NCBI GenBank assembly: GCA_000002435.2
Contig: CM018792.1
Direction: 5' to 3' (one strand)
Length of the DNA stretch: 64,000 nt
Source: Giardia intestinalis
Lineage: Eukaryota
In this document: one piece after another, positions 12,314 to 45,842 of the stretch
Layout of the letters: each line of letters opens with the position of its first letter
Numbering within the stretch: position 1 is the first letter of the stretch
The notes under the pieces: model-generated
Databases searched by the model: none
What the model was told of the DNA's origin: nothing
What the model saw: the letters and a program-made list of their open reading frames with translations, nothing else
Position numbers and translations under genes: made by a program

Positions 12314-13510
12314 TTATTTGTCGTCATATTCAATCCCAGGTCCAGCTGGAGGCGGCCCTTGACGCCCTGTTCTAGTAAACGCCCCGGAGCGGGCCTGGAG
12401 CGCGATTGCGCGGCGCGCGTCTGCGGCGGCGCCTCTGAAGAGCCCGCGCTCGGCGGCGTTGTGGGAGCCACAGCCCGGGCAGCGGTAGAGGTGGTGGCGC
12501 CGGGCGACAAAGAGCCCGCCGCACTCGTGGCATGCGCAGTCGACGAAGACGCCCCGGTACTCGGGCGGGACCGCAAGCGATCCCCGGAGCTCCTCCAGGC
12601 GCGCCTCGTAGAGCTCCCTGTCCTGCCCGAAGAGGACGAGCCGGCGGCAGACCGGGCACTTGTAGTTCGCCCCACCCAGGCGAAAGACGGCCTCGTAGCA
12701 GTGGCGGTGGCACGAGTGGCGCCCGCAGGGAAGGACGATGTACGGGTAGATGTTGTCCCGGAGGCCGTCGAGGCAGTAGACGCAGTTCCCGGGGTCCGGC
12801 GCGCACGCGTGAACCTGGCCAAGGGCGACTGTGTGGCATGTCCCGCAACGCTCGCAGTGCTCCGAGTACCCCGGAAGGCCCTGCCGGCACGTCCCGCAGC
12901 GGGCGCAGTGGAAGCTCGGACGCCCCTCGCGGCCCATTCCGCAGATGAGGCGACACGTCTCGCAGTAGCGCGTCCCGAAGGGCATCTGGCAGTGTGTGCA
13001 GCGGAGCCCGATGGGGCCGGTGGCGCGGCAGAAGAGACAGAAGACCTCTGCCGTGCGGGTCCGCGGGAACTCGTGGTCGTCGTGGGAGGCATCGTGGCAG
13101 AAGCGGCATAGAGAGCGCTCTCCGCAGACTGCGCAGTAGAGGAGGCAGCCCCGGACATAGTGTGGGCAGCCCACGGAGAGGCCCTGCTTGTGTGCGGCAT
13201 AGAGGTAGTGCGAGGCAGGGAGCGCCGGGTCCCGGGCGACCCGGCCGGCGCCCGCTGCGACCCGGATCGCGTAGGGCAGGGCGGGATCGTACGCCTCGAG
13301 CAGGCAGACGGGCTCTGCGACCTCCTCCCAGGAGCCCTGCAGCCCGCGGCCAGAGCCCTCGAGGATCGCCGAGATAAACGTCTTGCGCGGGCACCGCTGG
13401 CTCGGCTCGGCAGGATCGCCGCCGGGAGGGACGGTAAAGAGGGTGGTCAGGAGGACGCAGATTCGGGAGTCCGTAGGAACGCGTTCGACATCTGAAGCGC
13501 TATAGAGCAT
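12314..13510 (-). CDS. CHY zinc-finger + RING E3 ubiquitin ligase (RCHY1/Pirh2-like), left copy; C-terminal tail altered by the duplication junction (…GPGIEYDDK)
   Basis: CHY signature CPHYVRGC…CAVCGERS.CRFCHDASHDDHEF, CTCHY-like Cys/His module, a RING-H2-like CVYCLDGL…CGRHSCHRHCYEAV…CPVCRR and a zinc-ribbon YRCPGCGSHN. Confidence 0.8.
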   Translation of the reverse strand: MLYSASDVERVPTDSRICVLLTTLFTVPPGGDPAEPSQRCPRKTFISAILEGSGRGLQGSWEEVAEPVCLLEAYDPALPYAIRVAAGAGRVARDPALPASHYLYAAHKQGLSVGCPHYVRGCLLYCAVCGERSLCRFCHDASHDDHEFPRTRTAEVFCLFCRATGPIGLRCTHCQMPFGTRYCETCRLICGMGREGRPSFHCARCGTCRQGLPGYSEHCERCGTCHTVALGQVHACAPDPGNCVYCLDGLRDNIYPYIVLPCGRHSCHRHCYEAVFRLGGANYKCPVCRRLVLFGQDRELYEARLEELRGSLAVPPEYRGVFVDCACHECGGLFVARRHHLYRCPGCGSHNAAERGLFRGAAADARRAIALQARSGAFTRTGRQGPPPAGPGIEYDDK

Positions 13511-13544
13511 CTTTTTGCAGGCGCGCAGGGAACGGCGCAGGGAA

Positions 13545-14495
13545 TCACAGGGGAAGGCGGACGTCTCCGAGAACCACCGTCGTCACGGTGTGCGAGTGCC
13601 CGTTGTAGGCGTAGACATACTTGTCGGTCGGGTCGCCCGCGATGTTCCAGAGCTTCGCGCTCTTGTCTGCGGCCGTGATGATGCACGCCGAGTCCGCACT
13701 AAAGGCGCTCGCCCAGACCGTGGCCTCGTTTGTCCCCAGCACGCGGGCGCGCGTCAGATAGCAGTCCTCCTCAAGAGCAACGGACCAGATCTTGCAAGTC
13801 TTGTCGGCGCTGCACGTCGCCAGGACGGCCCCGTCCGGAGAGAGGTTGACGTGCATCACGGCATCCAAGTGCGCCTGGATGGACTGCTGAGGCGCGAAGA
13901 AGTGGCTGCTGCCCTTGTAGGCGTAGACGCGGACGATGCCCCGCCCGTCAGAGCACGCGAGGATTTGAGCCCCCGGGGCGCAGCTGACCGAACGGACGCC
14001 GACGTCGCACTCGAACGCGACCGTCGTTGCGAAGGGGTGCCGGGGCTGGCGCAGATCGTACGCAAGCAGGCGACCCTCCTGATCTCCCGTGACGAGGAGC
14101 GCCGCATCCCCCCGGTCGCACGCGACAGAGAGCGTGTTGAGGGCCGCGTCGTGGACGATGCAGCTAGTCTGCTTCCCCCCGCGGGTGTCGAAGAGCAGAA
14201 GGCGTCCGTCCTCGCCCACGCTGGCGACGGTCGAGTCGCCCTGGAGAAAGCAGCATCCTGTGACGTTGGAGAGGTGTCCGTCGAAGGCGGCGACTGGGTC
14301 CCGCCCGGCAGAGCCGAGGTCATAAACGGTCGTGGCGGAGAACCCGGCTGCAAGCAGGACTTTCCGGTCCGCGCTGAGGGCCAGCCCGTTGGCGACCTTT
14401 CCGAAGTTCAGCGTGCGGAGCGCACTTTCAGAGGTCGGCCGCCAGAGCTTGATCGACCCGTCGTAGCTCCCCGTGGCAATGACGACCTCTTCCAT
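13545..14495 (-). CDS. LST8: LST8 (G-beta-L, TOR complex WD40 subunit), left copy, 316 aa from MEEVVIATGSYDGSIKLWR
   Basis: Seven-WD40 protein of LST8 length. N-terminal blocks align with LST8 (VILATAGYDHTIRFWEA / PVASFEGH..NVT…SEDGT.K.WD.R pattern). The ORF-track 570-aa version carries an S/P-rich junk extension and was trimmed to the internal Met. Coordinate is ±1 nt. Confidence 0.75.
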   Translation of the reverse strand: MEEVVIATGSYDGSIKLWRPTSESALRTLNFGKVANGLALSADRKVLLAAGFSATTVYDLGSAGRDPVAAFDGHLSNVTGCCFLQGDSTVASVGEDGRLLLFDTRGGKQTSCIVHDAALNTLSVACDRGDAALLVTGDQEGRLLAYDLRQPRHPFATTVAFECDVGVRSVSCAPGAQILACSDGRGIVRVYAYKGSSHFFAPQQSIQAHLDAVMHVNLSPDGAVLATCSADKTCKIWSVALEEDCYLTRARVLGTNEATVWASAFSADSACIITAADKSAKLWNIAGDPTDKYVYAYNGHSHTVTTVVLGDVRLPL

Positions 14496-14502
14496 TTTTT
14501 GA

Positions 14503-15843
14503 CTAGAAGCGTCTCTGAGGGTCGAAGCTTGGAAGCAGCGTGGCCAACAGCAGGAGCACAAGCCTTGCGGCGCTGTGCATGCGGGGCCCCTGGGGCTGCG
14601 GAAGATTGATGTTCGCCTCCTCGAGGAGCTTGAAGACAGCCGGGGCTTGCGCGACCCTCCGGTAGCCCCCATGGGCCCGCTGCTCGCAGTCCTCGCGGAA
14701 GAAGTCGTCGAAGAACGCGTGGTAGAGGACGCCCTCGGCCCCCACGGGGTCTGCAGACTTGATGAACTCGACGATTGGCGCGGGCGGCAGGAAGTTCGCG
14801 GTGCTGTAGATGAGGGCCTTGGCGGCGTACGTGACGACGTAGGTCTTCCAGTAGAGGGCGGCCAGGGCGGCGAGGCTGGGAACGCTCGCGAGCTGAAAGA
14901 TGTAGATGACGCAGACGGTCCAGAACGTCGAGAGGACGTGGACGGCGAAGCCGATGGGGGAGACACGGACTGCCAGGAGCAGGTCTGGAGACAGGAGCAG
15001 CGGCCAGGGGGCGGCAAGTCGAGTGGCCACGGCGAGGTGATGGAGGGCGCGCCCGACGGCCACGAGAGGAAGGAGGAGCGTGTAGAGCGTGCTTCCGGCC
15101 CGCACGTACAGCCCGACCTCAAGAAACTGGCGGCGCGAAAACAGCCGGCGAGACTCCTGGCCACCCGAGGGCGTGATCGGGGGCATCTGGACGACGCGCA
15201 CAAAGAACGGCCCCTGGACCCCGGATCGCTGCAGAAACGTGCCGTAGTGCTGCGCAAGGACGCCCATGGGAAGGACCCAGGGAGCCGGATGAAGGCCCCG
15301 GAGGGTGCGGCAGACAGCCAGCGCCGGGTCCTCCAAGGGGCCGCCCAGAAGGTCTGCGGGGTCCAGACTGGCGCGCGTTGACCCTCGGAGGTCTGCTGCG
15401 GCGTACCCGATGTCCCGACAGCGGGCGCTTGCCTCGGGGGCGGCAGCCAGCCCGGGACCTCCAGGCTGTGCCAGGGGGTGGGTGTATCGGAGCCGGGTGA
15501 CGTGCTGCTTCACAACAAGGAAGAACGTGAGGAGCTCGGCGTCGCCCCGGACACGCGTCTGGACACGCCGGAGGTCTTCAAGGGTCAAGTGGAGCGGGGG
15601 GAGCCACTGGAGGAGGTTACGGCGAGACCTGGTGACGACCTGGTAGAGCTCGCAGCAATCATAGTCGGGGAGGGGCGTGGGTGCCGCAGCGGGCCCTGGG
15701 GGCTCGAGCAGGGAAAGGTTGGCCAGGGCTGCAAAGACAACCTCCCGGAGGCCCAGCTGGCCGTGGAGTGTCAGAAGCAGCGCCCGAATGCGTCCCCGGT
15801 GGGCTGTGAGGATGGCCGTCGGGATGCCATCGCTGATAGGCAT
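14503..15843 (-). CDS. multi-pass membrane protein, function unknown, left copy (446 aa)
   Basis: Several clear hydrophobic helices in the C-terminal half. Tightly packed head-to-tail with LST8. ATG sits in an AT-rich CATTTATAATTTTGATG element shared with the divergent neighbour. Confidence 0.6.
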   Translation of the reverse strand: MPISDGIPTAILTAHRGRIRALLLTLHGQLGLREVVFAALANLSLLEPPGPAAAPTPLPDYDCCELYQVVTRSRRNLLQWLPPLHLTLEDLRRVQTRVRGDAELLTFFLVVKQHVTRLRYTHPLAQPGGPGLAAAPEASARCRDIGYAAADLRGSTRASLDPADLLGGPLEDPALAVCRTLRGLHPAPWVLPMGVLAQHYGTFLQRSGVQGPFFVRVVQMPPITPSGGQESRRLFSRRQFLEVGLYVRAGSTLYTLLLPLVAVGRALHHLAVATRLAAPWPLLLSPDLLLAVRVSPIGFAVHVLSTFWTVCVIYIFQLASVPSLAALAALYWKTYVVTYAAKALIYSTANFLPPAPIVEFIKSADPVGAEGVLYHAFFDDFFREDCEQRAHGGYRRVAQAPAVFKLLEEANINLPQPQGPRMHSAARLVLLLLATLLPSFDPQRRF

Positions 15844-15854
15844 TTATAATTTTG
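15844..15854. promoter_or_regulatory. compact AT-rich bidirectional initiator between divergent genes (left arm); right-arm copy at 42314..42324
   Basis: Only ~11 bp separate the two start codons within CATTTATAATTTTGATG. This matches the short AT-rich Giardia promoter architecture. Confidence 0.5.
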
Positions 15855-16667
15855 ATGCCCCCCGGCATGCAACCTGACGACCCCCCGGCACGGCCAGCGG
15901 GATGCTGCCACAGGTTCGGAGCTGCGCTTCTCGCGATGCCCCGGTGTGCACTCTGCCTTCTTGCCCTCGAGCTGCTCGCCGGCCTTTCCCTGTCGCTGGC
16001 CTCGCTGGCGGGGGGCTTCCAGGCTGCAATCTGGCTCTCCATCAATATGGAGCGTGCATACAAGGACCTGGAGCTCTGGCGGCTGGTCAGCGCCCCTGTT
16101 CTCCCGGAGTCCGTCTTCCAGGGAGCCCTCTTCGCCTTGATCGGCTGGAACTCTGCGTTCCTACTGGAGCGGACCGTCGGCTGGAAGGTTTTTCTCGGGC
16201 TCCTCGCCTTTGCGGTCCCCTGCGTCTCCCTTCTGACGTCGGCCCTCACGGCCCTCCTCGCCCTCACCCCCGGCCTCCGGGACGTCCCGTACTTCGCCGC
16301 CCAGTGGACAAGCAATGCGAACATGGGGCCCGGACCCCTGCTGGTATTCCTGACGATTATGGGGATCCGGCTGTCCGGGCATAAGTCGTTCACTTGCTGC
16401 TTCCGGTGCCCCATCCCGGCGTGGGGCGTCATCCTCGTCACCGTCCTCATGGCCCAGGTGATGCTCTATCCCCCCTGGGAGGGCGTTCCCTACACGCTCT
16501 CGGGCGTCGTCGCAGCGTATGTCCTGCCGCGAAGAGCCTTCAGGAGGCCTTTGTCCCCGGAGGACGAGGCTCTCGTGGCCAGCGAGGACGGGCCCGAGGA
16601 CGTCCGGCCTACAGAGACACTTCCGCCTCCTGCCGAGGAGTTCCGGGGCCGGGGGAGGAGCCTGTGA
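15855..16667 (+). CDS. rhomboid/derlin-like polytopic membrane protein (probably catalytically inactive), left copy
   Basis: About 6 TM helices. A 'WR' motif (ELWRL) sits in the first luminal loop as in rhomboid-superfamily proteins. The GPGP segment lies where GxSG would be. The motif call comes from memory, not from a search. Confidence 0.45.
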   Translation: MPPGMQPDDPPARPAGCCHRFGAALLAMPRCALCLLALELLAGLSLSLASLAGGFQAAIWLSINMERAYKDLELWRLVSAPVLPESVFQGALFALIGWNSAFLLERTVGWKVFLGLLAFAVPCVSLLTSALTALLALTPGLRDVPYFAAQWTSNANMGPGPLLVFLTIMGIRLSGHKSFTCCFRCPIPAWGVILVTVLMAQVMLYPPWEGVPYTLSGVVAAYVLPRRAFRRPLSPEDEALVASEDGPEDVRPTETLPPPAEEFRGRGRSL

Positions 16668-17901
16668 CCGGTGTAAACCCCTCCCACGCAACTCCGTGGC
16701 GCCTGCTTCGGTTCATCAGGCGCAAACTACTCGTGGCAAAGCCGGGTAGGCTGTTGAGCCGGTGCTTGCAAAGGAGGTCGAGGGTCTTGTCTACCGGGCG
16801 ACTCAGGGGCCGTTCCAGACGCTGCCAGCGGAGGCAGAGCACCTGGGTCTCGAGGCGCGCGGCGAGCGCTCGTCGCAGTCGGAGGTTTCGGTCTGCAAAT
16901 GCGCGGCGCAGACGGTCGAGCGTGGGGGCGGCGCTGCCGGCCATCATCTCGCCGACGATGCGACGGGTCTCGTCGAATGCAGAGCCCCCAGAGGCCGGGC
17001 GGCTGGGCACTCCGCGGTGCGTGGAGAGGCGGCAGATCCCCGGCGCACGCCCACCTCTGCCCGCAAGCGACCCGCGGGCCCGAGGAAGCACAGGCGCGGC
17101 CGAGGAGGGCTCAACCGCAGACGGCACCCCGTCGTCGTTGAGGTCTGCCACCAGGCGCTCGATGTTTGCAAACTCGAAGGCCTCCTCGACCGCCTTGCTG
17201 ACCCCAACGACGCTGAACTGCCGCTGACGGGCGTGTGTCCTCGAAGGCCCGACAGGCGCCGATGCCAGCGGGAGCAGGGGCGCTGCGGCGTAGAGCCCGA
17301 CGTTCTGGACCGCCTGGAGGTGCGTCACGTCGTCGTGCTCGTCGTCCGGGGAGACAACTGGGCGGGAAAAGTAGGGCGCGCCCTGTGCGTCTGCGGGCGA
17401 AAGCGTCCGAAGGCCCTTGACAAGGTCGTCGTTTGCGCGAAAGCGGTTCTTCACGGGGCGGAGGCGTAGGGGAATGCCCGAGCGGGGCCCCAGGACCCCG
17501 CCGATCCCTGCGATGTTCGTTGGATAGGCCGGCTCGAAGCCGACGAAGCTGGAGGCCTCCTCGCTCGCGAAGGCGGCGCACGGGTCTGTAGGGAGCGGGG
17601 CCATGCGAGTTGAGCCTATGTGCGACTCGCGGTCCTGGAGGTAGAGAAGGGGCGGCTGGCCCGCGTAGATCTGGGCTGCAGTCGCCTGCTCAAGAGACAC
17701 GGCGCTGCTGCGCGTCACAAGGGCTGCTCTGTGACGGGGCGTGGGGGCCCCGAGAGCGACCTCGAGGGCGGCGAGCCTCTGTTCGCGCACCGCAATCGCG
17801 GTCATTAGAGGCGCCTTCCGAGCCGAGAGCTCGTCGAGGCGGCGGCTGATGGCCCAGAGCTCCTGGATTGCCGCGCCAAGCAGGGTGCTCTCGGGGTCCA
17901 T
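16609..17901 (-). CDS. hypothetical protein (430 aa from MDPESTLL…), left copy
   Basis: The longest ORF in this block with balanced amino-acid composition. Competing frames are R/P/G-rich. Divergent from the ankyrin gene across a short AT-richer spacer. Confidence 0.45.
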   Translation of the reverse strand: MDPESTLLGAAIQELWAISRRLDELSARKAPLMTAIAVREQRLAALEVALGAPTPRHRAALVTRSSAVSLEQATAAQIYAGQPPLLYLQDRESHIGSTRMAPLPTDPCAAFASEEASSFVGFEPAYPTNIAGIGGVLGPRSGIPLRLRPVKNRFRANDDLVKGLRTLSPADAQGAPYFSRPVVSPDDEHDDVTHLQAVQNVGLYAAAPLLPLASAPVGPSRTHARQRQFSVVGVSKAVEEAFEFANIERLVADLNDDGVPSAVEPSSAAPVLPRARGSLAGRGGRAPGICRLSTHRGVPSRPASGGSAFDETRRIVGEMMAGSAAPTLDRLRRAFADRNLRLRRALAARLETQVLCLRWQRLERPLSRPVDKTLDLLCKHRLNSLPGFATSSLRLMNRSRRHGVAWEGFTPVTGSSPGPGTPRQEAEVSL

Positions 17902-17925
17902 TGTAAATTCCGATCGCAAGTTCAT

Positions 17926-21599: not shown

Positions 21600-21647
21600 G
21601 GTTGTAGCTGATGGATTAAATTTTTGCCAGCCCATCTACTCCCAGGT

Positions 21648-37522: not shown

Positions 37523-37531
37523 ACCCATAAA

Positions 37532-37981: not shown

Positions 37982-37994
37982 ACGACGGTTTACT
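37977..37994. terminator. palindromic paired poly(A) signals AGTAAACGACGGTTTACT (right copy)
   Basis: Overlaps the TAA of the small gene on + and sits 1 nt from the stop of the ankyrin gene on -. Confidence 0.55.
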
Positions 37995-40242
37995 ACAGGT
38001 AGCTGAACCTCGCCGGCCCTGCGTGGGCCTCGCGGTCCAGCTCTCCGAGCCCCAGGTCTCCCCCGACCGCCGACCGCCCGAGGGAGCCGCTGCGGATGAG
38101 GTTCGACATCTCGTCGATGAGGTCTGGCATCGCAAAGTGCTGGGAGCCCCGCGGGCCTGCGTCGCCGTCCTCAAGCGCCTTACTGGACTCGGTGGCCTTC
38201 TTGAGCGTGTCGCTCAGACGCTTGTTGCAGATCCACATGTCGTCGATCAACATCGAAATCACGGAGTTGGCCTCGGTCACCTTGCGCGACTTGTCGAAGA
38301 GCCGCTCGCGCAGGGCCTCGACTTCTGCGCGAAGGTCTGCGTAGCGCTCGACCGTGATGCCCTCGGCCTCGAACTGCTCCATCGCCTCCTGCATCCCGAG
38401 AAGGTTGCGCTGCATCTCCTCCATCTCCTCGAGGAGCTTCTTTGCGTCCTCGTGCTCTGCGCTCAGGGCGTCGAGCTCGCGGCGCGTCTCGTCCAGCTCG
38501 CGCGCCGCGTTGCCTCCCGCGGCTTCGGCCCGGGCCAGCTCTCCCTCGAGCTCTTTGACGCGCTCCTGGGCCGTTATCAGCTGCCCCAGGACGGAGTCGT
38601 CGCTGTTCTGGAGGTCTGTGATGTGCTTCTCGAGCTCGCGGACGTGTGCATTCATGAGCTCGACCTCGCCCCGCGCGGCCTCGACTTCCTGGCGGGCGGC
38701 GGCCTTGACCTCCTCGACCTCCTCCTCCATCGCCTGGGTGTCGCGGACCTTCTCTGCATACCTCGCCTCTGCGGCGGCAACCTTCTTCTCGAGCTCGGAC
38801 ATGTCGTACAGATGGCCCTTCATCTCGCGAATCGCCGCCGCCTGCTCGTCCACCTTTGCACGAAGGTCATCGCGCTCCTGAGCCACGACCTGGAGCTCGA
38901 CCCGGAGCTTCTCAAGCTCGCGGATCGCATCTCCCTGGGAGAGGATGTCCTCGATCGCCTGGAAGAAGCTGTCCGAGTCACGCACGCCGAGGAGATCTGC
39001 AAGGCGCTGGATCGCCTCGGTAAGGGGCTTGTCGGTGACCAGGTTGAACTCCTCGCTCCGGCTGTCGAGGATGAGGGCGGTGACGATGCACGGCTCGACC
39101 TCGTCCTCGTAGACCTGCAGAATCTCCTGGCATTGCCGGTGGCCGTGCTGGACGGCGATGTCGTATGCAGACTGGCCTGCATCGTTCCGGAGCCCGTGCT
39201 CGAGGGGAGCGAGGAGCCCGACGATAGGCGCGTGGCCGGCCAGGGCTGCGTGCTGGAGCGCAGTGGCCTTCCCGGGGGAGTGGCCGAGAGGCGCCGTGCT
39301 CTGGAGGTTGGCCTCGAAGGGCGCGAGGGCCCCGACGATCTCGAGGAAGCCCCGGTGTGCGGCGAACATCATCGCAGTTGTTCCGGTCTTGTTGGGCTGG
39401 GCATTTTCGGCGTCGATGAGGTGCTTCACGCACGCGAGGTGGCCTGCGTCTGCTGCGAGGATCAGGGCGGTCGAGCCCTCGTGGTCGCCGCAGCTCGGGT
39501 TGTCGGGGATCGCCGCGCCGACGTCCTCGGGCGTCCTTTCAATCAGCACTCGGACGGCGTCTGCGCGCCCGAACTCTGCGGCAAGCATGAGGGGCGTCTT
39601 CCCCGACGCATCCCGTGTTCCGCGGTAGAGGTCGGCGAGGAGCGTTACCGAGACGGTGGGGTCTCGCGGAGAGAGGGCGGCATAGTGGAGGGGTGTGCGG
39701 CCCAGGCAGTCCCGGGTCTGGGCGCCTGCGGCCACGTGGGCCCTCAGGGCCGGCTCGTTCAGATCGAGGGCGGCGAGAAGGGGCTCGGCGAGGTACGGCC
39801 GCTCCTGGTCGAACGCCAGGAGTGCCTTCGTGGTCGAGAGGTGGCCGCGGGAGGCGGCGATCTCAATGGCCGTCGCACCAGCTGGGTACCCGAAGGCCGC
39901 GGCGGAAAGCTGCCTCCCAGCCTGGTAGGGCGCGAGGGCTGAGACCGCCGCATCGTGGCCGTGCATGGCCGCCGACATGAGGGCGGTCCAGCCTGTGTCG
40001 CTCCGGATGTCCTTCTCGTACGGGAGAAGGTACTTGACCGTGCCTGTGTGGCCGCCCTGGGCTGCAAGGTGTAGCGCCGTGAGCCCGGGCCCGTCCGGGA
40101 GCACGGCCCCCTGGTACTGCTTGCAATGGACAACGGTGAACTTGATCTCTCCGGACCGCGCCGCCTCAAACCAGGCGTCGAGGTTTCGCTTGTATTGCGA
40201 GTCGTCGGGCATCCAGGAATTTTGTGTTGGCTGCAATTTCAC
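37993..40242 (-). CDS. ankyrin-repeat + coiled-coil protein, right copy (749 aa)
   Basis: Translation identical to 17926..20175. Only synonymous differences were detected via the other frames. Confidence 0.85.
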   Translation of the reverse strand: MKLQPTQNSWMPDDSQYKRNLDAWFEAARSGEIKFTVVHCKQYQGAVLPDGPGLTALHLAAQGGHTGTVKYLLPYEKDIRSDTGWTALMSAAMHGHDAAVSALAPYQAGRQLSAAAFGYPAGATAIEIAASRGHLSTTKALLAFDQERPYLAEPLLAALDLNEPALRAHVAAGAQTRDCLGRTPLHYAALSPRDPTVSVTLLADLYRGTRDASGKTPLMLAAEFGRADAVRVLIERTPEDVGAAIPDNPSCGDHEGSTALILAADAGHLACVKHLIDAENAQPNKTGTTAMMFAAHRGFLEIVGALAPFEANLQSTAPLGHSPGKATALQHAALAGHAPIVGLLAPLEHGLRNDAGQSAYDIAVQHGHRQCQEILQVYEDEVEPCIVTALILDSRSEEFNLVTDKPLTEAIQRLADLLGVRDSDSFFQAIEDILSQGDAIRELEKLRVELQVVAQERDDLRAKVDEQAAAIREMKGHLYDMSELEKKVAAAEARYAEKVRDTQAMEEEVEEVKAAARQEVEAARGEVELMNAHVRELEKHITDLQNSDDSVLGQLITAQERVKELEGELARAEAAGGNAARELDETRRELDALSAEHEDAKKLLEEMEEMQRNLLGMQEAMEQFEAEGITVERYADLRAEVEALRERLFDKSRKVTEANSVISMLIDDMWICNKRLSDTLKKATESSKALEDGDAGPRGSQHFAMPDLIDEMSNLIRSGSLGRSAVGGDLGLGELDREAHAGPARFSYL

Positions 40243-40266
40243 ATGAACTTGCGATCGGAATTTACA

Positions 40267-41559
40267 ATGGACCCCGAGAGCACCCTGCTTGGCGCGGCAA
40301 TCCAGGAGCTCTGGGCCATCAGCCGCCGCCTCGACGAGCTCTCGGCTCGGAAGGCGCCTCTAATGACCGCGATTGCGGTGCGCGAACAGAGGCTCGCCGC
40401 CCTCGAGGTCGCTCTCGGGGCCCCCACGCCCCGTCACAGAGCAGCCCTTGTGACGCGCAGCAGCGCCGTGTCTCTTGAGCAGGCGACTGCAGCCCAGATC
40501 TACGCGGGCCAGCCGCCCCTTCTCTACCTCCAGGACCGCGAGTCGCACATAGGCTCAACTCGCATGGCCCCGCTCCCTACAGACCCGTGCGCCGCCTTCG
40601 CGAGCGAGGAGGCCTCCAGCTTCGTCGGCTTCGAGCCGGCCTATCCAACGAACATCGCAGGGATCGGCGGGGTCCTGGGGCCCCGCTCGGGCATTCCCCT
40701 ACGCCTCCGCCCCGTGAAGAACCGCTTTCGCGCAAACGACGACCTTGTCAAGGGCCTTCGGACGCTTTCGCCCGCAGACGCACAGGGCGCGCCCTACTTT
40801 TCCCGCCCAGTTGTCTCCCCGGACGACGAGCACGACGACGTGACGCACCTCCAGGCGGTCCAGAACGTCGGGCTCTACGCCGCAGCGCCCCTGCTCCCGC
40901 TGGCATCGGCGCCTGTCGGGCCTTCGAGGACACACGCCCGTCAGCGGCAGTTCAGCGTCGTTGGGGTCAGCAAGGCGGTCGAGGAGGCCTTCGAGTTTGC
41001 AAACATCGAGCGCCTGGTGGCAGACCTCAACGACGACGGGGTGCCGTCTGCGGTTGAGCCCTCCTCGGCCGCGCCTGTGCTTCCTCGGGCCCGCGGGTCG
41101 CTTGCGGGCAGAGGTGGGCGTGCGCCGGGGATCTGCCGCCTCTCCACGCACCGCGGAGTGCCCAGCCGCCCGGCCTCTGGGGGCTCTGCATTCGACGAGA
41201 CCCGTCGCATCGTCGGCGAGATGATGGCCGGCAGCGCCGCCCCCACGCTCGACCGTCTGCGCCGCGCATTTGCAGACCGAAACCTCCGACTGCGACGAGC
41301 GCTCGCCGCGCGCCTCGAGACCCAGGTGCTCTGCCTCCGCTGGCAGCGTCTGGAACGGCCCCTGAGTCGCCCGGTAGACAAGACCCTCGACCTCCTTTGC
41401 AAGCACCGGCTCAACAGCCTACCCGGCTTTGCCACGAGTAGTTTGCGCCTGATGAACCGAAGCAGGCGCCACGGAGTTGCGTGGGAGGGGTTTACACCGG
41501 TCACAGGCTCCTCCCCCGGCCCCGGAACTCCTCGGCAGGAGGCGGAAGTGTCTCTGTAG
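40267..41559 (+). CDS. hypothetical protein (430 aa), right copy
   Basis: Identical to the left copy. Confidence 0.45.
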   Translation: MDPESTLLGAAIQELWAISRRLDELSARKAPLMTAIAVREQRLAALEVALGAPTPRHRAALVTRSSAVSLEQATAAQIYAGQPPLLYLQDRESHIGSTRMAPLPTDPCAAFASEEASSFVGFEPAYPTNIAGIGGVLGPRSGIPLRLRPVKNRFRANDDLVKGLRTLSPADAQGAPYFSRPVVSPDDEHDDVTHLQAVQNVGLYAAAPLLPLASAPVGPSRTHARQRQFSVVGVSKAVEEAFEFANIERLVADLNDDGVPSAVEPSSAAPVLPRARGSLAGRGGRAPGICRLSTHRGVPSRPASGGSAFDETRRIVGEMMAGSAAPTLDRLRRAFADRNLRLRRALAARLETQVLCLRWQRLERPLSRPVDKTLDLLCKHRLNSLPGFATSSLRLMNRSRRHGVAWEGFTPVTGSSPGPGTPRQEAEVSL

Positions 41560-42313
41560 GCCGGACGTCCTCGGGCCCGTCCTCGCTGGCCACGAGAGCC
41601 TCGTCCTCCGGGGACAAAGGCCTCCTGAAGGCTCTTCGCGGCAGGACATACGCTGCGACGACGCCCGAGAGCGTGTAGGGAACGCCCTCCCAGGGGGGAT
41701 AGAGCATCACCTGGGCCATGAGGACGGTGACGAGGATGACGCCCCACGCCGGGATGGGGCACCGGAAGCAGCAAGTGAACGACTTATGCCCGGACAGCCG
41801 GATCCCCATAATCGTCAGGAATACCAGCAGGGGTCCGGGCCCCATGTTCGCATTGCTTGTCCACTGGGCGGCGAAGTACGGGACGTCCCGGAGGCCGGGG
41901 GTGAGGGCGAGGAGGGCCGTGAGGGCCGACGTCAGAAGGGAGACGCAGGGGACCGCAAAGGCGAGGAGCCCGAGAAAAACCTTCCAGCCGACGGTCCGCT
42001 CCAGTAGGAACGCAGAGTTCCAGCCGATCAAGGCGAAGAGGGCTCCCTGGAAGACGGACTCCGGGAGAACAGGGGCGCTGACCAGCCGCCAGAGCTCCAG
42101 GTCCTTGTATGCACGCTCCATATTGATGGAGAGCCAGATTGCAGCCTGGAAGCCCCCCGCCAGCGAGGCCAGCGACAGGGAAAGGCCGGCGAGCAGCTCG
42201 AGGGCAAGAAGGCAGAGTGCACACCGGGGCATCGCGAGAAGCGCAGCTCCGAACCTGTGGCAGCATCCCGCTGGCCGTGCCGGGGGGTCGTCAGGTTGCA
42301 TGCCGGGGGGCAT
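41501..42313 (-). CDS. rhomboid/derlin-like membrane protein, right copy
   Basis: Identical to the left copy. Confidence 0.45.
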   Translation of the reverse strand: MPPGMQPDDPPARPAGCCHRFGAALLAMPRCALCLLALELLAGLSLSLASLAGGFQAAIWLSINMERAYKDLELWRLVSAPVLPESVFQGALFALIGWNSAFLLERTVGWKVFLGLLAFAVPCVSLLTSALTALLALTPGLRDVPYFAAQWTSNANMGPGPLLVFLTIMGIRLSGHKSFTCCFRCPIPAWGVILVTVLMAQVMLYPPWEGVPYTLSGVVAAYVLPRRAFRRPLSPEDEALVASEDGPEDVRPTETLPPPAEEFRGRGRSL

Positions 42314-42324
42314 CAAAATTATAA

Positions 42325-43665
42325 ATGCCTATCAGCGATGGCATCCCGACGGCCATCCTCACAGCCCACCGGGGACGCATTCGGGCGCTGCTTCTGACAC
42401 TCCACGGCCAGCTGGGCCTCCGGGAGGTTGTCTTTGCAGCCCTGGCCAACCTTTCCCTGCTCGAGCCCCCAGGGCCCGCTGCGGCACCCACGCCCCTCCC
42501 CGACTATGATTGCTGCGAGCTCTACCAGGTCGTCACCAGGTCTCGCCGTAACCTCCTCCAGTGGCTCCCCCCGCTCCACTTGACCCTTGAAGACCTCCGG
42601 CGTGTCCAGACGCGTGTCCGGGGCGACGCCGAGCTCCTCACGTTCTTCCTTGTTGTGAAGCAGCACGTCACCCGGCTCCGATACACCCACCCCCTGGCAC
42701 AGCCTGGAGGTCCCGGGCTGGCTGCCGCCCCCGAGGCAAGCGCCCGCTGTCGGGACATCGGGTACGCCGCAGCAGACCTCCGAGGGTCAACGCGCGCCAG
42801 TCTGGACCCCGCAGACCTTCTGGGCGGCCCCTTGGAGGACCCGGCGCTGGCTGTCTGCCGCACCCTCCGGGGCCTTCATCCGGCTCCCTGGGTCCTTCCC
42901 ATGGGCGTCCTTGCGCAGCACTACGGCACGTTTCTGCAGCGATCCGGGGTCCAGGGGCCGTTCTTTGTGCGCGTCGTCCAGATGCCCCCGATCACGCCCT
43001 CGGGTGGCCAGGAGTCTCGCCGGCTGTTTTCGCGCCGCCAGTTTCTTGAGGTCGGGCTGTACGTGCGGGCCGGAAGCACGCTCTACACGCTCCTCCTTCC
43101 TCTCGTGGCCGTCGGGCGCGCCCTCCATCACCTCGCCGTGGCCACTCGACTTGCCGCCCCCTGGCCGCTGCTCCTGTCTCCAGACCTGCTCCTGGCAGTC
43201 CGTGTCTCCCCCATCGGCTTCGCCGTCCACGTCCTCTCGACGTTCTGGACCGTCTGCGTCATCTACATCTTTCAGCTCGCGAGCGTTCCCAGCCTCGCCG
43301 CCCTGGCCGCCCTCTACTGGAAGACCTACGTCGTCACGTACGCCGCCAAGGCCCTCATCTACAGCACCGCGAACTTCCTGCCGCCCGCGCCAATCGTCGA
43401 GTTCATCAAGTCTGCAGACCCCGTGGGGGCCGAGGGCGTCCTCTACCACGCGTTCTTCGACGACTTCTTCCGCGAGGACTGCGAGCAGCGGGCCCATGGG
43501 GGCTACCGGAGGGTCGCGCAAGCCCCGGCTGTCTTCAAGCTCCTCGAGGAGGCGAACATCAATCTTCCGCAGCCCCAGGGGCCCCGCATGCACAGCGCCG
43601 CAAGGCTTGTGCTCCTGCTGTTGGCCACGCTGCTTCCAAGCTTCGACCCTCAGAGACGCTTCTAG
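42325..43665 (+). CDS. multi-pass membrane protein, right copy
   Basis: Identical to the left copy. Confidence 0.6.
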   Translation: MPISDGIPTAILTAHRGRIRALLLTLHGQLGLREVVFAALANLSLLEPPGPAAAPTPLPDYDCCELYQVVTRSRRNLLQWLPPLHLTLEDLRRVQTRVRGDAELLTFFLVVKQHVTRLRYTHPLAQPGGPGLAAAPEASARCRDIGYAAADLRGSTRASLDPADLLGGPLEDPALAVCRTLRGLHPAPWVLPMGVLAQHYGTFLQRSGVQGPFFVRVVQMPPITPSGGQESRRLFSRRQFLEVGLYVRAGSTLYTLLLPLVAVGRALHHLAVATRLAAPWPLLLSPDLLLAVRVSPIGFAVHVLSTFWTVCVIYIFQLASVPSLAALAALYWKTYVVTYAAKALIYSTANFLPPAPIVEFIKSADPVGAEGVLYHAFFDDFFREDCEQRAHGGYRRVAQAPAVFKLLEEANINLPQPQGPRMHSAARLVLLLLATLLPSFDPQRRF

Positions 43666-43672
43666 TCAAAAA

Positions 43673-44623
43673 ATGGAAGAGGTCGTCATTGCCACGGGGA
43701 GCTACGACGGGTCGATCAAGCTCTGGCGGCCGACCTCTGAAAGTGCGCTCCGCACGCTGAACTTCGGAAAGGTCGCCAACGGGCTGGCCCTCAGCGCGGA
43801 CCGGAAAGTCCTGCTTGCAGCCGGGTTCTCCGCCACGACCGTTTATGACCTCGGCTCTGCCGGGCGGGACCCAGTCGCCGCCTTCGACGGACACCTCTCC
43901 AACGTCACAGGATGCTGCTTTCTCCAGGGCGACTCGACCGTCGCCAGCGTGGGCGAGGACGGACGCCTTCTGCTCTTCGACACCCGCGGGGGGAAGCAGA
44001 CTAGCTGCATCGTCCACGACGCGGCCCTCAACACGCTCTCTGTCGCGTGCGACCGGGGGGATGCGGCGCTCCTCGTCACGGGAGATCAGGAGGGTCGCCT
44101 GCTTGCGTACGATCTGCGCCAGCCCCGGCACCCCTTCGCAACGACGGTCGCGTTCGAGTGCGACGTCGGCGTCCGTTCGGTCAGCTGCGCCCCGGGGGCT
44201 CAAATCCTCGCGTGCTCTGACGGGCGGGGCATCGTCCGCGTCTACGCCTACAAGGGCAGCAGCCACTTCTTCGCGCCTCAGCAGTCCATCCAGGCGCACT
44301 TGGATGCCGTGATGCACGTCAACCTCTCTCCGGACGGGGCCGTCCTGGCGACGTGCAGCGCCGACAAGACTTGCAAGATCTGGTCCGTTGCTCTTGAGGA
44401 GGACTGCTATCTGACGCGCGCCCGCGTGCTGGGGACAAACGAGGCCACGGTCTGGGCGAGCGCCTTTAGTGCGGACTCGGCGTGCATCATCACGGCCGCA
44501 GACAAGAGCGCGAAGCTCTGGAACATCGCGGGCGACCCGACCGACAAGTATGTCTACGCCTACAACGGGCACTCGCACACCGTGACGACGGTGGTTCTCG
44601 GAGACGTCCGCCTTCCCCTGTGA
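43673..44623 (+). CDS. LST8: LST8 (TOR complex WD40 subunit), right copy
   Basis: Identical to the left copy. ATG at 43673 lies 7 nt after the stop of the upstream membrane-protein gene. Confidence 0.75.
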   Translation: MEEVVIATGSYDGSIKLWRPTSESALRTLNFGKVANGLALSADRKVLLAAGFSATTVYDLGSAGRDPVAAFDGHLSNVTGCCFLQGDSTVASVGEDGRLLLFDTRGGKQTSCIVHDAALNTLSVACDRGDAALLVTGDQEGRLLAYDLRQPRHPFATTVAFECDVGVRSVSCAPGAQILACSDGRGIVRVYAYKGSSHFFAPQQSIQAHLDAVMHVNLSPDGAVLATCSADKTCKIWSVALEEDCYLTRARVLGTNEATVWASAFSADSACIITAADKSAKLWNIAGDPTDKYVYAYNGHSHTVTTVVLGDVRLPL

Positions 44624-44657
44624 TTCCCTGCGCCGTTCCCTGCGCGCCTGCAAAAAG

Positions 44658-45842
44658 ATGCTCTATAGCGCTTCAGATGTCGAACGCGTTCCTACGGACT
44701 CCCGAATCTGCGTCCTCCTGACCACCCTCTTTACCGTCCCTCCCGGCGGCGATCCTGCCGAGCCGAGCCAGCGGTGCCCGCGCAAGACGTTTATCTCGGC
44801 GATCCTCGAGGGCTCTGGCCGCGGGCTGCAGGGCTCCTGGGAGGAGGTCGCAGAGCCCGTCTGCCTGCTCGAGGCGTACGATCCCGCCCTGCCCTACGCG
44901 ATCCGGGTCGCAGCGGGCGCCGGCCGGGTCGCCCGGGACCCGACGCTCCCTGCCTCGCACTACCTCTATGCCGCACACAAGCAGGGCCTCTCCGTGGGCT
45001 GCCCACACTATGTCCGGGGCTGCCTCCTCTACTGCGCAGTCTGCGGAGAGCGCTCTCCATGCCGCTTCTGCCACGATGCCTCCCACGACGACCACGAGTT
45101 CCCGCGGACCCGCACGGCAGAGGTCTTCTGTCTCTTCTGCCGCGCCACCGGCCCCATCGGGCTCCGCTGCACACACTGCCAGATGCCCTTCGGGACGCGC
45201 TACTGCGAGACGTGTCGCCTCATCTGCGGAATGGGCCGCGAGGGGCGTCCGAGCTTCCACTGCGCCCGCTGCGGGACGTGCCGGCAGGGCCTTCCGGGGT
45301 ACTCGGAGCACTGCGAGCGTTGCGGGACATGCCACACAGTCGCCCTTGGCCAGGTTCACGCGTGCGCGCCGGACCCCGGGAACTGCGTCTACTGCCTCGA
45401 CGGCCTCCGGGACAACATCTACCCGTACATCGTCCTTCCCTGCGGGCGCCACTCGTGCCACCGCCACTGCTACGAGGCCGTCTTTCGCCTGGGTGGGGCG
45501 AACTACAAGTGCCCGGTCTGCCGCCGGCTCGTCCTCTTCGGGCAGGACAGGGAGCTCTACGAGGCGCGCCTGGAGGAGCTCCGGGGATCGCTTGCGGTCC
45601 CGCCCGAGTACCGGGGCGTCTTCGTCGACTGCGCATGCCACGAGTGCGGCGGGCTCTTTGTCGCCCGGCGCCACCACCTCTACCGCTGCCCGGGCTGTGG
45701 CTCCCACAACGCCGCCGAGCGCGGGCTCTTCAGAGGCGCCGCCGCAGACGCGCGCCGCGCAATCGCGCTCCAGGCCCGCTCCGGGGCGTTTACTAGAACA
45801 GGGCGTCAAGGGCCGCCTCCAGCTGGGCCCCAAACTGGGTAA
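44658..45842 (+). CDS. CHY zinc-finger + RING E3 ligase, right copy (394 aa; tail …GPQTG)
   Basis: Same domain set as the left copy. Differs by at least two nonsynonymous SNPs (L/P in the CHY finger, A/T near the N-terminus) and by the C-terminal tail. Confidence 0.8.
   Translation: MLYSASDVERVPTDSRICVLLTTLFTVPPGGDPAEPSQRCPRKTFISAILEGSGRGLQGSWEEVAEPVCLLEAYDPALPYAIRVAAGAGRVARDPTLPASHYLYAAHKQGLSVGCPHYVRGCLLYCAVCGERSPCRFCHDASHDDHEFPRTRTAEVFCLFCRATGPIGLRCTHCQMPFGTRYCETCRLICGMGREGRPSFHCARCGTCRQGLPGYSEHCERCGTCHTVALGQVHACAPDPGNCVYCLDGLRDNIYPYIVLPCGRHSCHRHCYEAVFRLGGANYKCPVCRRLVLFGQDRELYEARLEELRGSLAVPPEYRGVFVDCACHECGGLFVARRHHLYRCPGCGSHNAAERGLFRGAAADARRAIALQARSGAFTRTGRQGPPPAGPQTG

What the first reader, a model, noticed from the sequence alone, without database searches (positions are those of the whole stretch)
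12342..45826. 8.3-kb near-perfect inverted duplication flanking a 16.8-kb spacer
Two blocks (12342-20644 and 37493-45826) are reverse complements of each other. I could find only ~4 SNPs and one 31-bp indel, so the arms are >99.9% identical. Each arm carries six complete genes: a CHY-RING E3 ligase, the TOR-complex subunit LST8, a membrane protein, a rhomboid/derlin-like protein, a hypothetical protein and an ankyrin/coiled-coil protein. The duplication is therefore recent or is kept homogeneous by gene conversion. It doubles the dosage of a TOR-pathway component and an E3 ligase. A long inverted repeat of this size in a compact protist chromosome is also a strong substrate for recombination, so the locus is structurally unstable.
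Basis: seen in the sequence. Interest (0 to 1): 0.85.

Follow-up and report, generated by a model that had tools for sequence, protein, structure and literature searches.

The report
Ancient GC-rich palindrome in Giardia
The 8.3-kb inverted duplication is real and already tagged in the Giardia WB reference genome, but it is an old palindrome shared by assemblages A, B and E whose arms are kept almost identical by copying between them, and only the arms have become far richer in G+C than their surroundings.

Summary
Observation confirmed exactly. The arms are 12342-20644 and 37493-45826: an 8,285-bp core with 3 mismatches, a 31-bp indel, and an 18-bp remnant with 1 mismatch. The window is G. 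intestinalis WB C6 (2020 PacBio reference), where arm-R genes already carry 'd' (duplicate) tags, so the duplication itself is known.

Not previously reported, as far as I could find:
- All four arm/flank junctions occur at the same nucleotides in DH (A2), P15 (E) and GS (B).
- Junction-anchored arm pieces are 99.5-100% identical within each genome but 5-8% different between assemblages. The duplication is therefore ancient and evolves in concert.
- Sixteen substitutions have been fixed in both WB arms since a close A-type isolate split off.
- Arms are 67-70% GC against 42-47% in spacer and flanks. The step falls within 100 bp of all four edges, at all codon positions and in non-coding DNA.
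- In G. muris the orthologues are single-copy, in the arm-R position, with ordinary GC (0.52-0.55).
- Third-position G/C-to-A/T fixation is 2.3-3.5 times lower in arms (GC3* 0.64-0.75 vs 0.45).

The parts
12342..20644 (.). Arm L, the derived (inserted) copy between PolE and gene 6084. 67.5% GC.
   Evidence: It carries an 18-nt remnant of the Sec31 3' end at its inner edge and the last 33 nt of gene 17354 at its outer edge, so it was copied from the arm-R locus.
37493..45826 (.). Arm R, the ancestral copy between Sec31 and gene 17354. 67.6% GC. Its genes are tagged GL50803_00d##### in the reference.
   Evidence: G. muris has the order 17352h-GBL-CHY-...-17354h-249aa-94762h-SF-assemblin-RING, the same as the WB right flank.
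20645..37492 (.). Unique spacer of about 16.85 kb at 44.9% GC. Genes: 6084, a GPN-loop GTPase, two large ankyrin proteins and Sec31.
   Evidence: Logan short-read contigs of 16,972 nt and a 17,992-nt DH contig end just inside the arms.
37511..37541 (+). 31-nt segment present in arm R but deleted from arm L, bounded by a CTCTGC direct repeat. It includes the Sec31 stop codon.
   Evidence: The deletion is shared by WB and DH (assemblage A). P15 and GS keep the 31 nt in both copies.
12314..13510 (-). CHY zinc-finger (Pirh2-like) gene, arm-L copy, 398 aa. Its stop codon lies 28 nt outside the arm.
   Evidence: PF05495, PF14599; KAE8304265.1; C-terminus ...PPAGPGIEYDDK.
44658..45842 (+). CHY zinc-finger gene, arm-R copy, 394 aa. 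Its 3' end overlaps the convergent gene 17354 (45793-48270, minus strand).
   Evidence: (KAE8304282.1; C-terminus ...PPAGPQTG).
13545..14495 (-). WD40 protein LST8/GBL, 316 aa, arm-L copy. The arm-R copy is 43673-44623 (+).
   Evidence: The G. muris orthologue TNJ30531.1 is annotated 'G beta-like protein GBL'.
14503..15843 (-). Hypothetical protein 17352, 446 aa, with TM-like segments, arm-L copy. The arm-R copy (d17352) is 42325-43665 (+).
   Evidence: (KAE8304267.1 and KAE8304280.1 are the same sequence).
15852..16667 (+). ORF of about 270 aa with three TM-like segments and no Pfam family, arm-L copy. The arm-R copy is 41501-42316 (-). The start codon is uncertain.
   Evidence: A gene is called at the same place in P15, GS and Logan contigs..
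16609..17901 (-). Hypothetical protein 17351, 430 aa, arm-L copy. The arm-R copy is 40267-41559 (+).
   Evidence: (KAE8304269.1 and KAE8304278.1).
17926..20175 (+). Ankyrin-repeat plus coiled-coil protein ('21.1'-type), about 739-749 aa, arm-L copy. The arm-R copy is 37993-40242 (-).
   Evidence: (Ank_2, 2.8e-47).

Best explanation
This is an ancient chromosomal palindrome. After Giardia intestinalis split from G. muris, but before assemblages A, B and E diverged, an 8.3-kb block was copied in inverted orientation into the PolE/6084 intergenic region about 17 kb away. The block ran from inside the 3' end of Sec31 to inside the 3' end of gene 17354. Since then the two arms have repeatedly repaired each other by intrachromosomal (arm-to-arm) gene conversion, so a mutation in one arm is either erased or copied to the other. 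Shown: the arms evolve in concert and about half as fast as their flanks. Inferred: the conversion is GC-biased, or equivalently it preferentially removes new G/C-to-A/T mutations. Over a long period this raised the arms, and only the arms, from ordinary composition to 67-70% GC and shifted the encoded proteins toward Gly/Ala/Arg/Pro. In assemblages A and E the arms now sit slightly above their current equilibrium and are slowly losing GC. Also inferred, weakly: crossover between the arms can flip the spacer, giving two isomers.
For: Real and ancient:
- Independent assemblies contain all four arm/flank junctions at the same nucleotides. P15: L001, L002, L008. GS: L003 (2009 assembly), L007 and L004 (2013 assembly). 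DH: both ends of one 17,992-nt contig, L005 and L010.
- The 2007 WB Sanger assembly also has a partial CHY next to PolE and a full CHY next to 17354.

Concerted evolution:
- Junction-anchored pieces within one genome match at 530/530 (DH), 291/291 and 425/427 (P15) and 363/364 (GS_B), and WB arms match at 8282/8285. The same pieces differ by 5-8% between assemblages.
- WB differs from the A-type isolate L020 at 34 arm sites. Sixteen of these are derived and present in both WB arms.

Direction of copying:
- Arm L holds fragments of the Sec31 and 17354 3' ends.
- G. muris shares the arm-R synteny.

GC enrichment tied to the duplicated state:
- Arm GC is 0.676 / 0.666 / 0.702 in WB / P15 / GS, against 0.42-0.48 in flanks.
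- GC steps from 0.37-0.52 to 0.66-0.72 within one 100-bp bin at all four edges, including both edges of the ancestral copy.
- GC1, GC2, GC3 and non-coding DNA are all raised, GARP residues are up and FYMINK down. The SF-assemblin control gene has only GC3 raised.
- The G. muris orthologues are single-copy with GC 0.52-0.55, the same as their neighbours.

Ongoing bias:
- At third positions the S-to-W rate is 0.062-0.094 in the arm against 0.216 in the flank, with equal W-to-S rates. GC3* is 0.64-0.75 against 0.44-0.46.
- Third-position distance WB-GS is 0.19-0.28 in the arm against 0.45-0.47 in the flank.
Against: - All-site polarised counts show net GC loss in the arms on the WB, P15 and L020 branches (S-to-W: W-to-S = 170:57, 231:41, 12:4 and 16:2). 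The bias now operating in assemblages A and E therefore cannot sustain 67% GC. Most of the enrichment predates the A/B/E split and cannot be watched happening.
- The W-to-S rate is not elevated in the arms, as simple gBGC predicts. The fit requires an additional general rate reduction of about 0.6-fold.
- Arm-to-arm identity over the whole arm in GS, P15 and DH rests on collapsed short-read consensus. Only the junction-anchored 290-550 nt are copy-specific.
- There are only three paralogous variants in WB. Two are clearly derived S-to-W alleles in a single arm. The third is ambiguous: P15 and L020 point to a derived S-to-W allele in arm L, while GS shares that allele. None can reveal the direction of conversion.
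- No read-depth or long-read data could be examined here.
Confidence: 0.75

Rival explanations
1. A recent segmental duplication in WB whose arms have simply not had time to diverge. This is the reader's first alternative, and it is how near-identical Giardia duplicates were read by Sun et al. 2010.
For: The arms are 99.96% identical. PMC2829556 treated such pairs as recent because gene conversion in Giardia was 'unresolved'.
Against: The same four junctions, at the same nucleotides, occur in DH, P15 and GS, whose flanks differ from WB by up to 26%. Independent identical duplications in each lineage are not credible.
Confidence: 0.02
2. An assembly artefact: a false duplication or mis-join in the PacBio WB reference.
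For: Near-identical repeats are a classic source of assembly error, and no reads could be inspected here.
Against: Both outer junctions are present in the independent 2007 Sanger assembly. All four junctions are present in three other isolates and four other assemblies. Logan short-read contigs from many runs break at the arm edges, giving 8,288-nt arm contigs and 16,972-nt spacer contigs.
Confidence: 0.02
3. The palindrome and its concerted evolution are real, but the GC richness is not caused by arm-to-arm conversion. Possible alternative causes are selection on codon usage or expression, an allelic recombination hotspot, or a block that was already GC-rich before it was copied.
For: The arms are now losing GC in assemblages A and E. 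The W-to-S rate is not raised. Highly expressed Giardia genes can reach GC3 of 0.9 (SF-assemblin).
Against: The GC step coincides, within 100 bp, with the duplication breakpoints on both sides of the ancestral copy. That would be a coincidence if the enrichment came first. The enrichment affects GC1, GC2 and non-coding DNA, unlike the codon-selection control. The single-copy G. muris orthologues have the same GC as their neighbours.
Confidence: 0.18
4. The lower divergence in the arms reflects only stronger purifying selection on the arm genes, not copy correction or biased conversion.
For: LST8 and the ankyrin protein are very conserved at first and second codon positions (p12 of 0.03 for WB-GS).
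Against: Third-position distances are also 1.7-2.5 times lower than in Sec31 or PolE for WB-GS, including the poorly conserved hypothetical genes 17351 and 17352. In the nearest isolate the arm differs by 0.41% and the adjoining flank by 0.6%, though the flank sample is small.
Confidence: 0.1

Closest known systems
Primate Y- and X-chromosome palindromes (e.g. P6; the 12 conserved X palindromes)
   Same: Inverted arms separated by a unique spacer. Arm-to-arm identity above 99.9% is maintained by gene conversion. The orthologous palindrome is conserved across diverged lineages. Arms are richer in GC than flanks, which is attributed to GC-biased conversion. Rare spacer inversions occur (PMC3723533 and PMC8981503, found).
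   Different: The arms here are 8.3 kb rather than tens of kb to Mb. The structure lies on an ordinary chromosome of a tetraploid, binucleate protist with no known meiosis. The genes are housekeeping genes, not testis-expressed ones. From my recollection of those papers, which I did not open, the primate GC excess is only a few points, against about 23 points here. The lineages sharing this palindrome differ by about 25% in flanking DNA, far more than human and macaque.
Plastid genome inverted repeat (IRa/IRb)
   Same: A long-lived inverted repeat kept identical by copy correction, with a substitution rate several-fold lower than single-copy regions, and flip-flop isomers of the single-copy region between the arms. 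This comparison rests on established knowledge, not on a test here.
   Different: This locus is nuclear and linear-chromosomal, with no rRNA operon (Rfam and tRNA scans were empty). Isomerisation is only suggested here.
Giardia rDNA arrays (about 75% GC)
   Same: A multicopy, concertedly evolving Giardia sequence with extreme GC, for which GC-biased gene conversion has been suggested (PMC10123126).
   Different: Those are tandem subtelomeric arrays of RNA genes, where structural selection on rRNA confounds the signal. Here there is a two-copy block of protein-coding genes with a single-copy outgroup as control.
WB reference 'd' duplications (Xu et al. 2020)
   Same: This locus is one of them. 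The paper states that 6.9% of the genome is duplicated, with multi-gene duplications up to 20 kb, and the arm-R genes are tagged GL50803_00d17351, d17352 and so on.
   Different: The paper does not discuss this locus, its conservation in other assemblages, its composition, or gene conversion. Its text contains 0 occurrences of 'gene conversion', 'GC content' or 'inver'.

Membership tests
Large palindrome maintained by arm-to-arm gene conversion (Y/X-palindrome type) | Two inverted arms with more than 99% identity around a unique spacer | tested here: met
   8,285-bp core with 3 mismatches, and a spacer of about 16.85 kb.
Large palindrome maintained by arm-to-arm gene conversion (Y/X-palindrome type) | An orthologous palindrome in diverged lineages, with paralogous arms more alike within a genome than orthologous arms between genomes (concerted evolution) | tested here: met
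   The same four junctions occur in A1, A2, B and E. Within-genome identity of junction-anchored pieces is 99.5-100%, against 92-95% between assemblages. Sixteen derived substitutions are shared by both WB arms relative to L020. Caveat: outside WB, only 290-550 nt per junction are copy-specific.
Large palindrome maintained by arm-to-arm gene conversion (Y/X-palindrome type) | GC content of the arms raised relative to flanks and spacer | tested here: met
   0.67-0.70 against 0.42-0.48 in three assemblages, with the step at the edges. The single-copy G. muris orthologues are not enriched.
Large palindrome maintained by arm-to-arm gene conversion (Y/X-palindrome type) | Conversion events that demonstrably favour G/C alleles (polarised paralogous variants) | tested here: inconclusive
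   WB has only 3 paralogous variants. Two are clearly derived S-to-W alleles in one arm and the third is ambiguous. Indirect support: third-position S-to-W fixation is 2.3-3.5 times lower in the arms. Against: net GC loss on recent branches.
Large palindrome maintained by arm-to-arm gene conversion (Y/X-palindrome type) | Two copies confirmed by read depth or by reads spanning an arm plus both flanks | not testable with these tools
   No read data were available. Indirect support comes from independent assemblies and from contig breaks at the edges.
Inverted repeat with flip-flop isomers (plastid-IR-like behaviour) | Both orientations of the spacer exist | tested here: inconclusive
   WB pairs PolE with 6084 and Sec31 with 17354. 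P15 (L001), GS 2009 (L003), GS 2013 (L007) and ERZ21878060 (L017) all pair Sec31 with PolE or 6084 with 17354. That is 4 of 4, or p of about 0.06 if the pairing were random. However, L015, L016 and L020 show that assemblers pass through one branch of the repeat, so these paths may be arbitrary.
Inverted repeat with flip-flop isomers (plastid-IR-like behaviour) | Substitution rate in the repeat lower than in single-copy DNA | tested here: met
   Arm divergence is 7.3% (WB-P15) and 12.1% (WB-GS), against 12-13% and 25-26% in the flanks. Third-position distances are about half.
Recent (young) segmental duplication | Absent from sister lineages that diverged before the arms could have accumulated differences | tested here: not met
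   Present with identical junctions in A2, B and E. Absent only from G. muris.
CHY-RING (Pirh2/RCHY1-like) E3 ligase, for gene 12314-13510 / 44658-45842 | CHY zinc finger followed by a RING and a zinc ribbon | tested here: inconclusive
   PF05495 zf-CHY scores 35.7 bits, above its 31.3-bit cutoff. zinc_ribbon_6 scores 17.4 bits, below its cutoff. No RING model was reported. 964 homologues were found at E<=1e-10. E3 activity was not tested.
LST8/GbetaL (TOR complex subunit), for gene 13545-14495 / 43673-44623 | A protein of about 300-320 aa made only of a seven-bladed WD40 propeller, orthologous to LST8 | tested here: inconclusive
   316 aa with WD40 propeller hits across its length. The G. muris positional orthologue is annotated 'G beta-like protein GBL'. 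No orthology tree or functional test was done.

The most novel reading that the evidence does not exclude
Giardia, a binucleate tetraploid with no observed meiosis, has frequent homologous repair between intrachromosomal repeats, with each site converted about 5,500 times per mutation. On this reading the repair is strongly GC-biased. Over evolutionary time it raised a 6-gene block by about 23 GC points (GC3 to about 0.83) and changed the amino-acid composition of conserved proteins such as LST8. The same palindrome exists as two spacer isomers in different assemblages. If so, this locus is a natural reporter for recombination and mismatch-repair bias in Giardia. The same process could help explain its 75%-GC rDNA and its very low allelic heterozygosity.
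Probability: 0.55. Interest if true: 0.7.

Novelty: new member of a known kind. Interest (0 to 1): 0.55.

Why it matters
How Giardia keeps its four genome copies nearly identical, and whether it recombines at all, are long-standing questions. This locus gives sequence-level evidence that homologous copying between repeats is frequent and ongoing in Giardia, and that it leaves a very large compositional footprint.

It also has a practical consequence. Near-identical Giardia duplicates cannot be assumed to be young (compare Sun et al. 2010, PMC2829556), and dS-based dating of such pairs is invalid.

The locus is a tractable two-copy system, with a single-copy outgroup, in which to measure conversion rate and bias. 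That could be done in population data or experimentally by marking one arm. It also flags a likely mis-assembly and mis-phasing hotspot, covering the TOR-pathway gene LST8, in every short-read Giardia assembly.

Tried and rejected
- Rfam and tRNA scans of the window found nothing, so this is not an rDNA- or organelle-type repeat.
- I first suspected a herpesvirus- or plastid-like genome because of the GC-rich inverted repeat. I rejected this once VSP, PolE and ankyrin genes and exact matches to WB proteins appeared.
Edge alignments across assemblages showed it is real.
- Two homologous-protein searches (CHY and LST8) failed to return G. muris. The exhaustive HMMER search did return it.
- All-site polarised substitution counts seemed to contradict gBGC. 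Splitting by codon position showed that the remaining A/T sites in the arms are mostly constrained first and second positions. The net recent GC loss in assemblages A and E is nonetheless real, and I report it as evidence against.
- I tried to establish the spacer isomer from assembly paths. This does not work as proof, because de Bruijn and 454 assemblers demonstrably run through one branch of the repeat.
- I searched the supplements of Pollo et al. 2020 for the locus gene IDs and found no occurrences.
- Pfam scans of 17351, 17352, the 271-aa ORF and the old model 23079 found no family, so 'rhomboid/derlin-like' is unsupported.
- Literature searches for Giardia with palindrome, gBGC or concerted evolution found no description of this locus.


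Full report
**1. The observation**

The repeat finder reports a single long repeat in the window, an inverted pair of about 8.3 kb. blastn of the two halves gives 12342-20626 against 45826-37542: 8,285 bp, 3 mismatches and no gaps, or 99.964% identity.

At the inner edge, arm R has 31 extra nucleotides (37511-37541, bounded by a CTCTGC direct repeat). Beyond them, 18 more nucleotides match with one mismatch. I wrongly doubted the indel at first (note 1) and corrected this later.

**2. Organism and prior knowledge**

Pfam finds a Giardia VSP, the DNA polymerase epsilon catalytic subunit, ankyrin '21.1'-type proteins and Sec31-like WD40 proteins.

Exact-sequence look-up places every tested protein in *Giardia intestinalis* WB C6, on a 2,761,001-bp chromosome of the 2020 PacBio reference (KAE83… accessions). 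The arm genes each have two accessions, and one copy carries a locus tag of the form GL50803_00d17352.

The reference paper explains that 'd' marks a duplicated gene. It states that 6.9% of the genome is duplicated, with multi-gene duplications up to 20 kb. It says nothing about this locus, gene conversion or GC content (PMC7000408). The duplication as such is therefore already annotated.

**3. Gene content**

Each arm holds six genes:
- a CHY zinc-finger protein (PF05495 above its cutoff);
- a 316-aa WD40 protein whose G. muris positional orthologue is annotated 'G beta-like protein GBL', i.e. LST8;
- hypothetical protein 17352, which has TM-like segments;
- a roughly 270-aa ORF with three TM-like segments and no Pfam family;
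- hypothetical protein 17351;
- an ankyrin/coiled-coil protein.

The outer repeat edge lies inside the CHY ORF. As a result the two copies end differently, at 398 aa and 394 aa. On the right side the edge also lies within the last 33 nt of the convergent gene 17354.

**4.

The arms are 67.5% GC. The spacer is 44.9% and the flanks are 43-47%. In 100-bp bins, GC jumps from 0.37-0.52 to 0.66-0.72 exactly at each of the four edges.

Arm genes have GC1 of 0.64-0.72, GC2 of 0.43-0.56 and GC3 of 0.79-0.85. Non-coding arm DNA is 0.65-0.69. The encoded proteins are enriched in G/A/R/P (0.30-0.41, against 0.19-0.27 elsewhere) and depleted in F/Y/M/I/N/K.

An internal control shows what codon-usage selection looks like. 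The SF-assemblin-like gene at 52631-53449 has GC3 of 0.89 but GC1 of 0.55 and GC2 of 0.34, and it has the same pattern in G. muris. The arm signal is therefore regional and not codon selection.

**5. The duplication is ancient**

Contigs from other assemblies were fetched by exact protein look-up.

- **P15 (assemblage E).** ACVC01000153 reads 6084…Sec31-arm-CHY-PolE-VSP (L001, L008). ACVC01000151 begins with the last 291 nt of the arm and continues into the 17354 homologue (L002).
- **GS (assemblage B).** The 2009 contig reads Sec31-arm-PolE (L003). The 2013 contig AHHH01000111 reads 6084-arm-17354 (L007). AHHH01000047 has PolE plus the last 364 nt of the arm (L004).
- **DH (assemblage A2).** One 17,992-nt contig is the spacer, with 530 nt and 550 nt of arm at its two ends in inverted orientation (L005, L010).

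Edge alignments show the same outer junction (…CCAGCTGG|) and the same inner junction in all of them. P15 and GS retain about 55-62 nt of the Sec31 3' end in both copies. The 31-nt deletion in the 6084-side copy is shared by WB and DH only.

The independent 2007 WB assembly also had a partial CHY next to PolE and a complete one next to 17354. Logan short-read contigs from many runs are 8,288 nt (arm) or 16,972 nt (spacer), which means they break at the edges.

An assembly artefact and a recent origin are both excluded.

**6. Concerted evolution**

Pieces of arm anchored in unique flank are nearly identical within a genome: 530/530 in DH, 291/291 and 425/427 in P15, and 363/364 in GS_B. The same pieces are only 92.6-94.8% identical between WB and P15 or GS.

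Across the whole arm, WB-P15 identity is 92.7% and WB-GS is 87.9%. The two WB arms are 99.96% identical.

On a short time scale, an A-type isolate (L020, SRR18693181) differs from WB at 34 of 8,280 arm sites. Polarised with P15, 16 of these are derived in WB and present in both WB arms. Copying between the arms is therefore recent and ongoing.

Under the simple equilibrium d = 2µ/c, an arm divergence of 3.6e-4 implies about 5,500 conversions per site per mutation.

**7. Which arm is the original?**

Arm L carries a remnant of the Sec31 3' end at its inner edge and the last 33 nt of gene 17354 at its outer edge. It must therefore have been copied from a locus where the block lay between Sec31 and 17354, which is arm R.

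The outgroup agrees. An exhaustive HMMER search found the G. muris CHY orthologue (TNJ30530.1, 41% identity). Its locus reads 17352h-GBL-CHY-(one extra Ank-RING gene)-17354h-249aa-94762h-SF-assemblin-RING. Apart from the one extra gene, that is the gene order of the WB right flank.

Each G. muris gene has one accession on one contig, and no repeat lies within ±10 kb. The block is single-copy there.

**8. Is the GC enrichment a consequence of the palindromic state?**

Three observations say yes.
- The same GC-rich block, with the same edges, is present in A, B and E (0.676, 0.666 and 0.702, against 0.42-0.48 in flanks). It is also present in a more divergent unnamed lineage (L013: 76% identity, 70% GC).
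- In the ancestral copy the GC step coincides with the duplication breakpoints on both sides. That is unexpected if the block had been GC-rich before it was copied.
- In G. muris the single-copy orthologues are 0.52-0.55 GC (GC3 0.57-0.62), indistinguishable from their neighbours 17354h and 94762h at 0.52-0.53.

**9. Direction of substitution**

With GS as outgroup, all-site counts on the WB and P15 branches show more S-to-W than W-to-S changes in the arms (170:57 and 231:41). The recent WB and L020 branches show the same (12:4 and 16:2). The arms are therefore slowly losing GC in assemblages A and E. This is consistent with GS (0.702) > WB (0.676) > P15 (0.666).

Splitting by codon position gives a clearer picture:

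| Third positions | W-to-S rate | S-to-W rate | GC3* |
|---|---|---|---|
| Arm | 0.17-0.19 | 0.062-0.094 | 0.64-0.75 |
| Flank | 0.17-0.18 | 0.216-0.217 | 0.44-0.46 |

A process that suppresses fixation of G/C-to-A/T changes still acts specifically in the arms. It is too weak, though, to hold the present GC3 of about 0.83.

The pattern fits GC-biased conversion (B of about 1) combined with a roughly 0.6-fold lower overall rate. It equally fits copy correction that preferentially erases new, mostly S-to-W, mutations.

Overall the arm evolves about half as fast as its flanks. Third-position distance for WB-GS is 0.19-0.28 in the arm against 0.45-0.47 in the flanks.

Of the three WB paralogous variants, two are clearly derived S-to-W alleles sitting in one arm. 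The third is ambiguous: P15 and L020 suggest a derived S-to-W allele in arm L, but GS shares that allele.

**10. Spacer orientation**

WB pairs PolE with 6084 and Sec31 with 17354. This holds in both the 2007 and the 2020 assemblies.

Every non-WB path that crosses a whole arm pairs Sec31 with PolE (P15 L001, GS L003) or 6084 with 17354 (GS L007; the SPAdes contig L017 from ERZ21878060). That is four of four for the opposite isomer.

However, other contigs run through one branch at the outer edge without any basis for phasing (L015 and L016 into 17354, L020 into PolE). Assembler choice therefore cannot be excluded. A spacer inversion between assemblages is suggested but not shown.

**11. Comparison with known systems**

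The anatomy and behaviour match primate Y/X palindromes: arm identity above 99.9% through gene conversion, conservation across species, GC-biased conversion and rare inversions (PMC3723533, PMC8981503). In its reduced substitution rate and possible isomers it also resembles plastid inverted repeats (established knowledge).

It differs in several ways:
- the host is a tetraploid, binucleate protist with no observed meiosis;
- the arms are much smaller;
- the genes are housekeeping genes;
- the lineages sharing the palindrome are much more diverged;
- the GC excess of about 23 points is very large. From my recollection of the primate papers, which I did not open, the primate excess is only a few points.

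In the Giardia literature I found only general statements. One study assumed near-identical duplicates to be recent because gene conversion was 'unresolved' (PMC2829556). Another speculated that gBGC acts on the 75%-GC rDNA (PMC10123126). I found no description of this palindrome.

**12. Verdict**

The duplication itself is already annotated.

What appears to be new is that this is an ancient, conserved palindrome. It shows ongoing concerted evolution, a halved substitution rate and a large GC enrichment confined to the arms, which is absent from the single-copy outgroup. It is a new member of a known kind of structure, in an organism where evidence for recombination is scarce.

Confidence is about 0.9 that it is an ancient palindrome evolving in concert. 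Confidence is about 0.7 that biased conversion caused the GC enrichment.

Noticed in passing
window 52631-53449 (+); L014 18596-19414: The SF-assemblin-family gene has GC3 of 0.89 with ordinary GC1 and GC2 (0.55 and 0.34). The G. muris orthologue shows the same pattern (GC3 0.91). This is a conserved codon-usage-selection signature, and I used it as an internal control.
   Followed up: partly
window 45793-45842: The convergent genes CHY (arm R, + strand, stop at 45842) and 17354 (- strand, stop at 45793) overlap by 50 nt at their 3' ends. The repeat edge (45826) falls inside this overlap.
   Followed up: partly
window 37511-37541 against 20626/20627; L005 and L010: A 31-nt deletion between CTCTGC direct repeats lies right at the inner edge of arm L. 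It is shared by WB and DH but absent in P15 and GS, and it has not been repaired by conversion. This suggests that conversion tracts rarely reach the last few tens of nucleotides of homology.
   Followed up: partly
L014 11209-12240 (G. muris): G. muris has an extra 343-aa ankyrin-plus-RING gene inserted between CHY and the 17354 homologue. It is absent from G. intestinalis. Upstream of 17352h lies a 2.2-kb stretch with no called gene, then a VSP, rather than 17351/Ank/Sec31.
   Followed up: no
L013 (Logan SRR22936437, 3,025 nt): An unnamed, more divergent Giardia lineage: 76.5% nucleotide identity to the WB arm, LST8 86% and CHY 70% amino-acid identity. It has the same 17352-LST8-CHY order at 70% GC. 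The contig ends 11 nt after the CHY stop, possibly at a repeat edge.
   Followed up: partly
L015, L016 (B-type), L020 (A-type), L011/L012: Logan contigs always break at the inner arm edge but run through the outer edge into one flank: 17354 in the B-type samples and PolE in the A-type sample. The reason for this asymmetry is unexplained.
   Followed up: partly
window 1-3776: The left end of the window is 58-64% GC. It carries a VSP gene (1821-3776, PF03302) directly upstream of PolE. In GS a 451-aa gene and a PI3K-like gene occupy that position instead, so the VSP neighbourhood is not conserved between assemblages A/E and B.
   Followed up: no
arm position 7402 (window 44943 / 13225): At this paralogous variant, WB arm R shares the derived A allele with the A-type isolate L020, while WB arm L keeps the ancestral G seen in P15 and GS. 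Either the variant has persisted unconverted since before the split of the two A-type lineages, or it was converted back.
   Followed up: no
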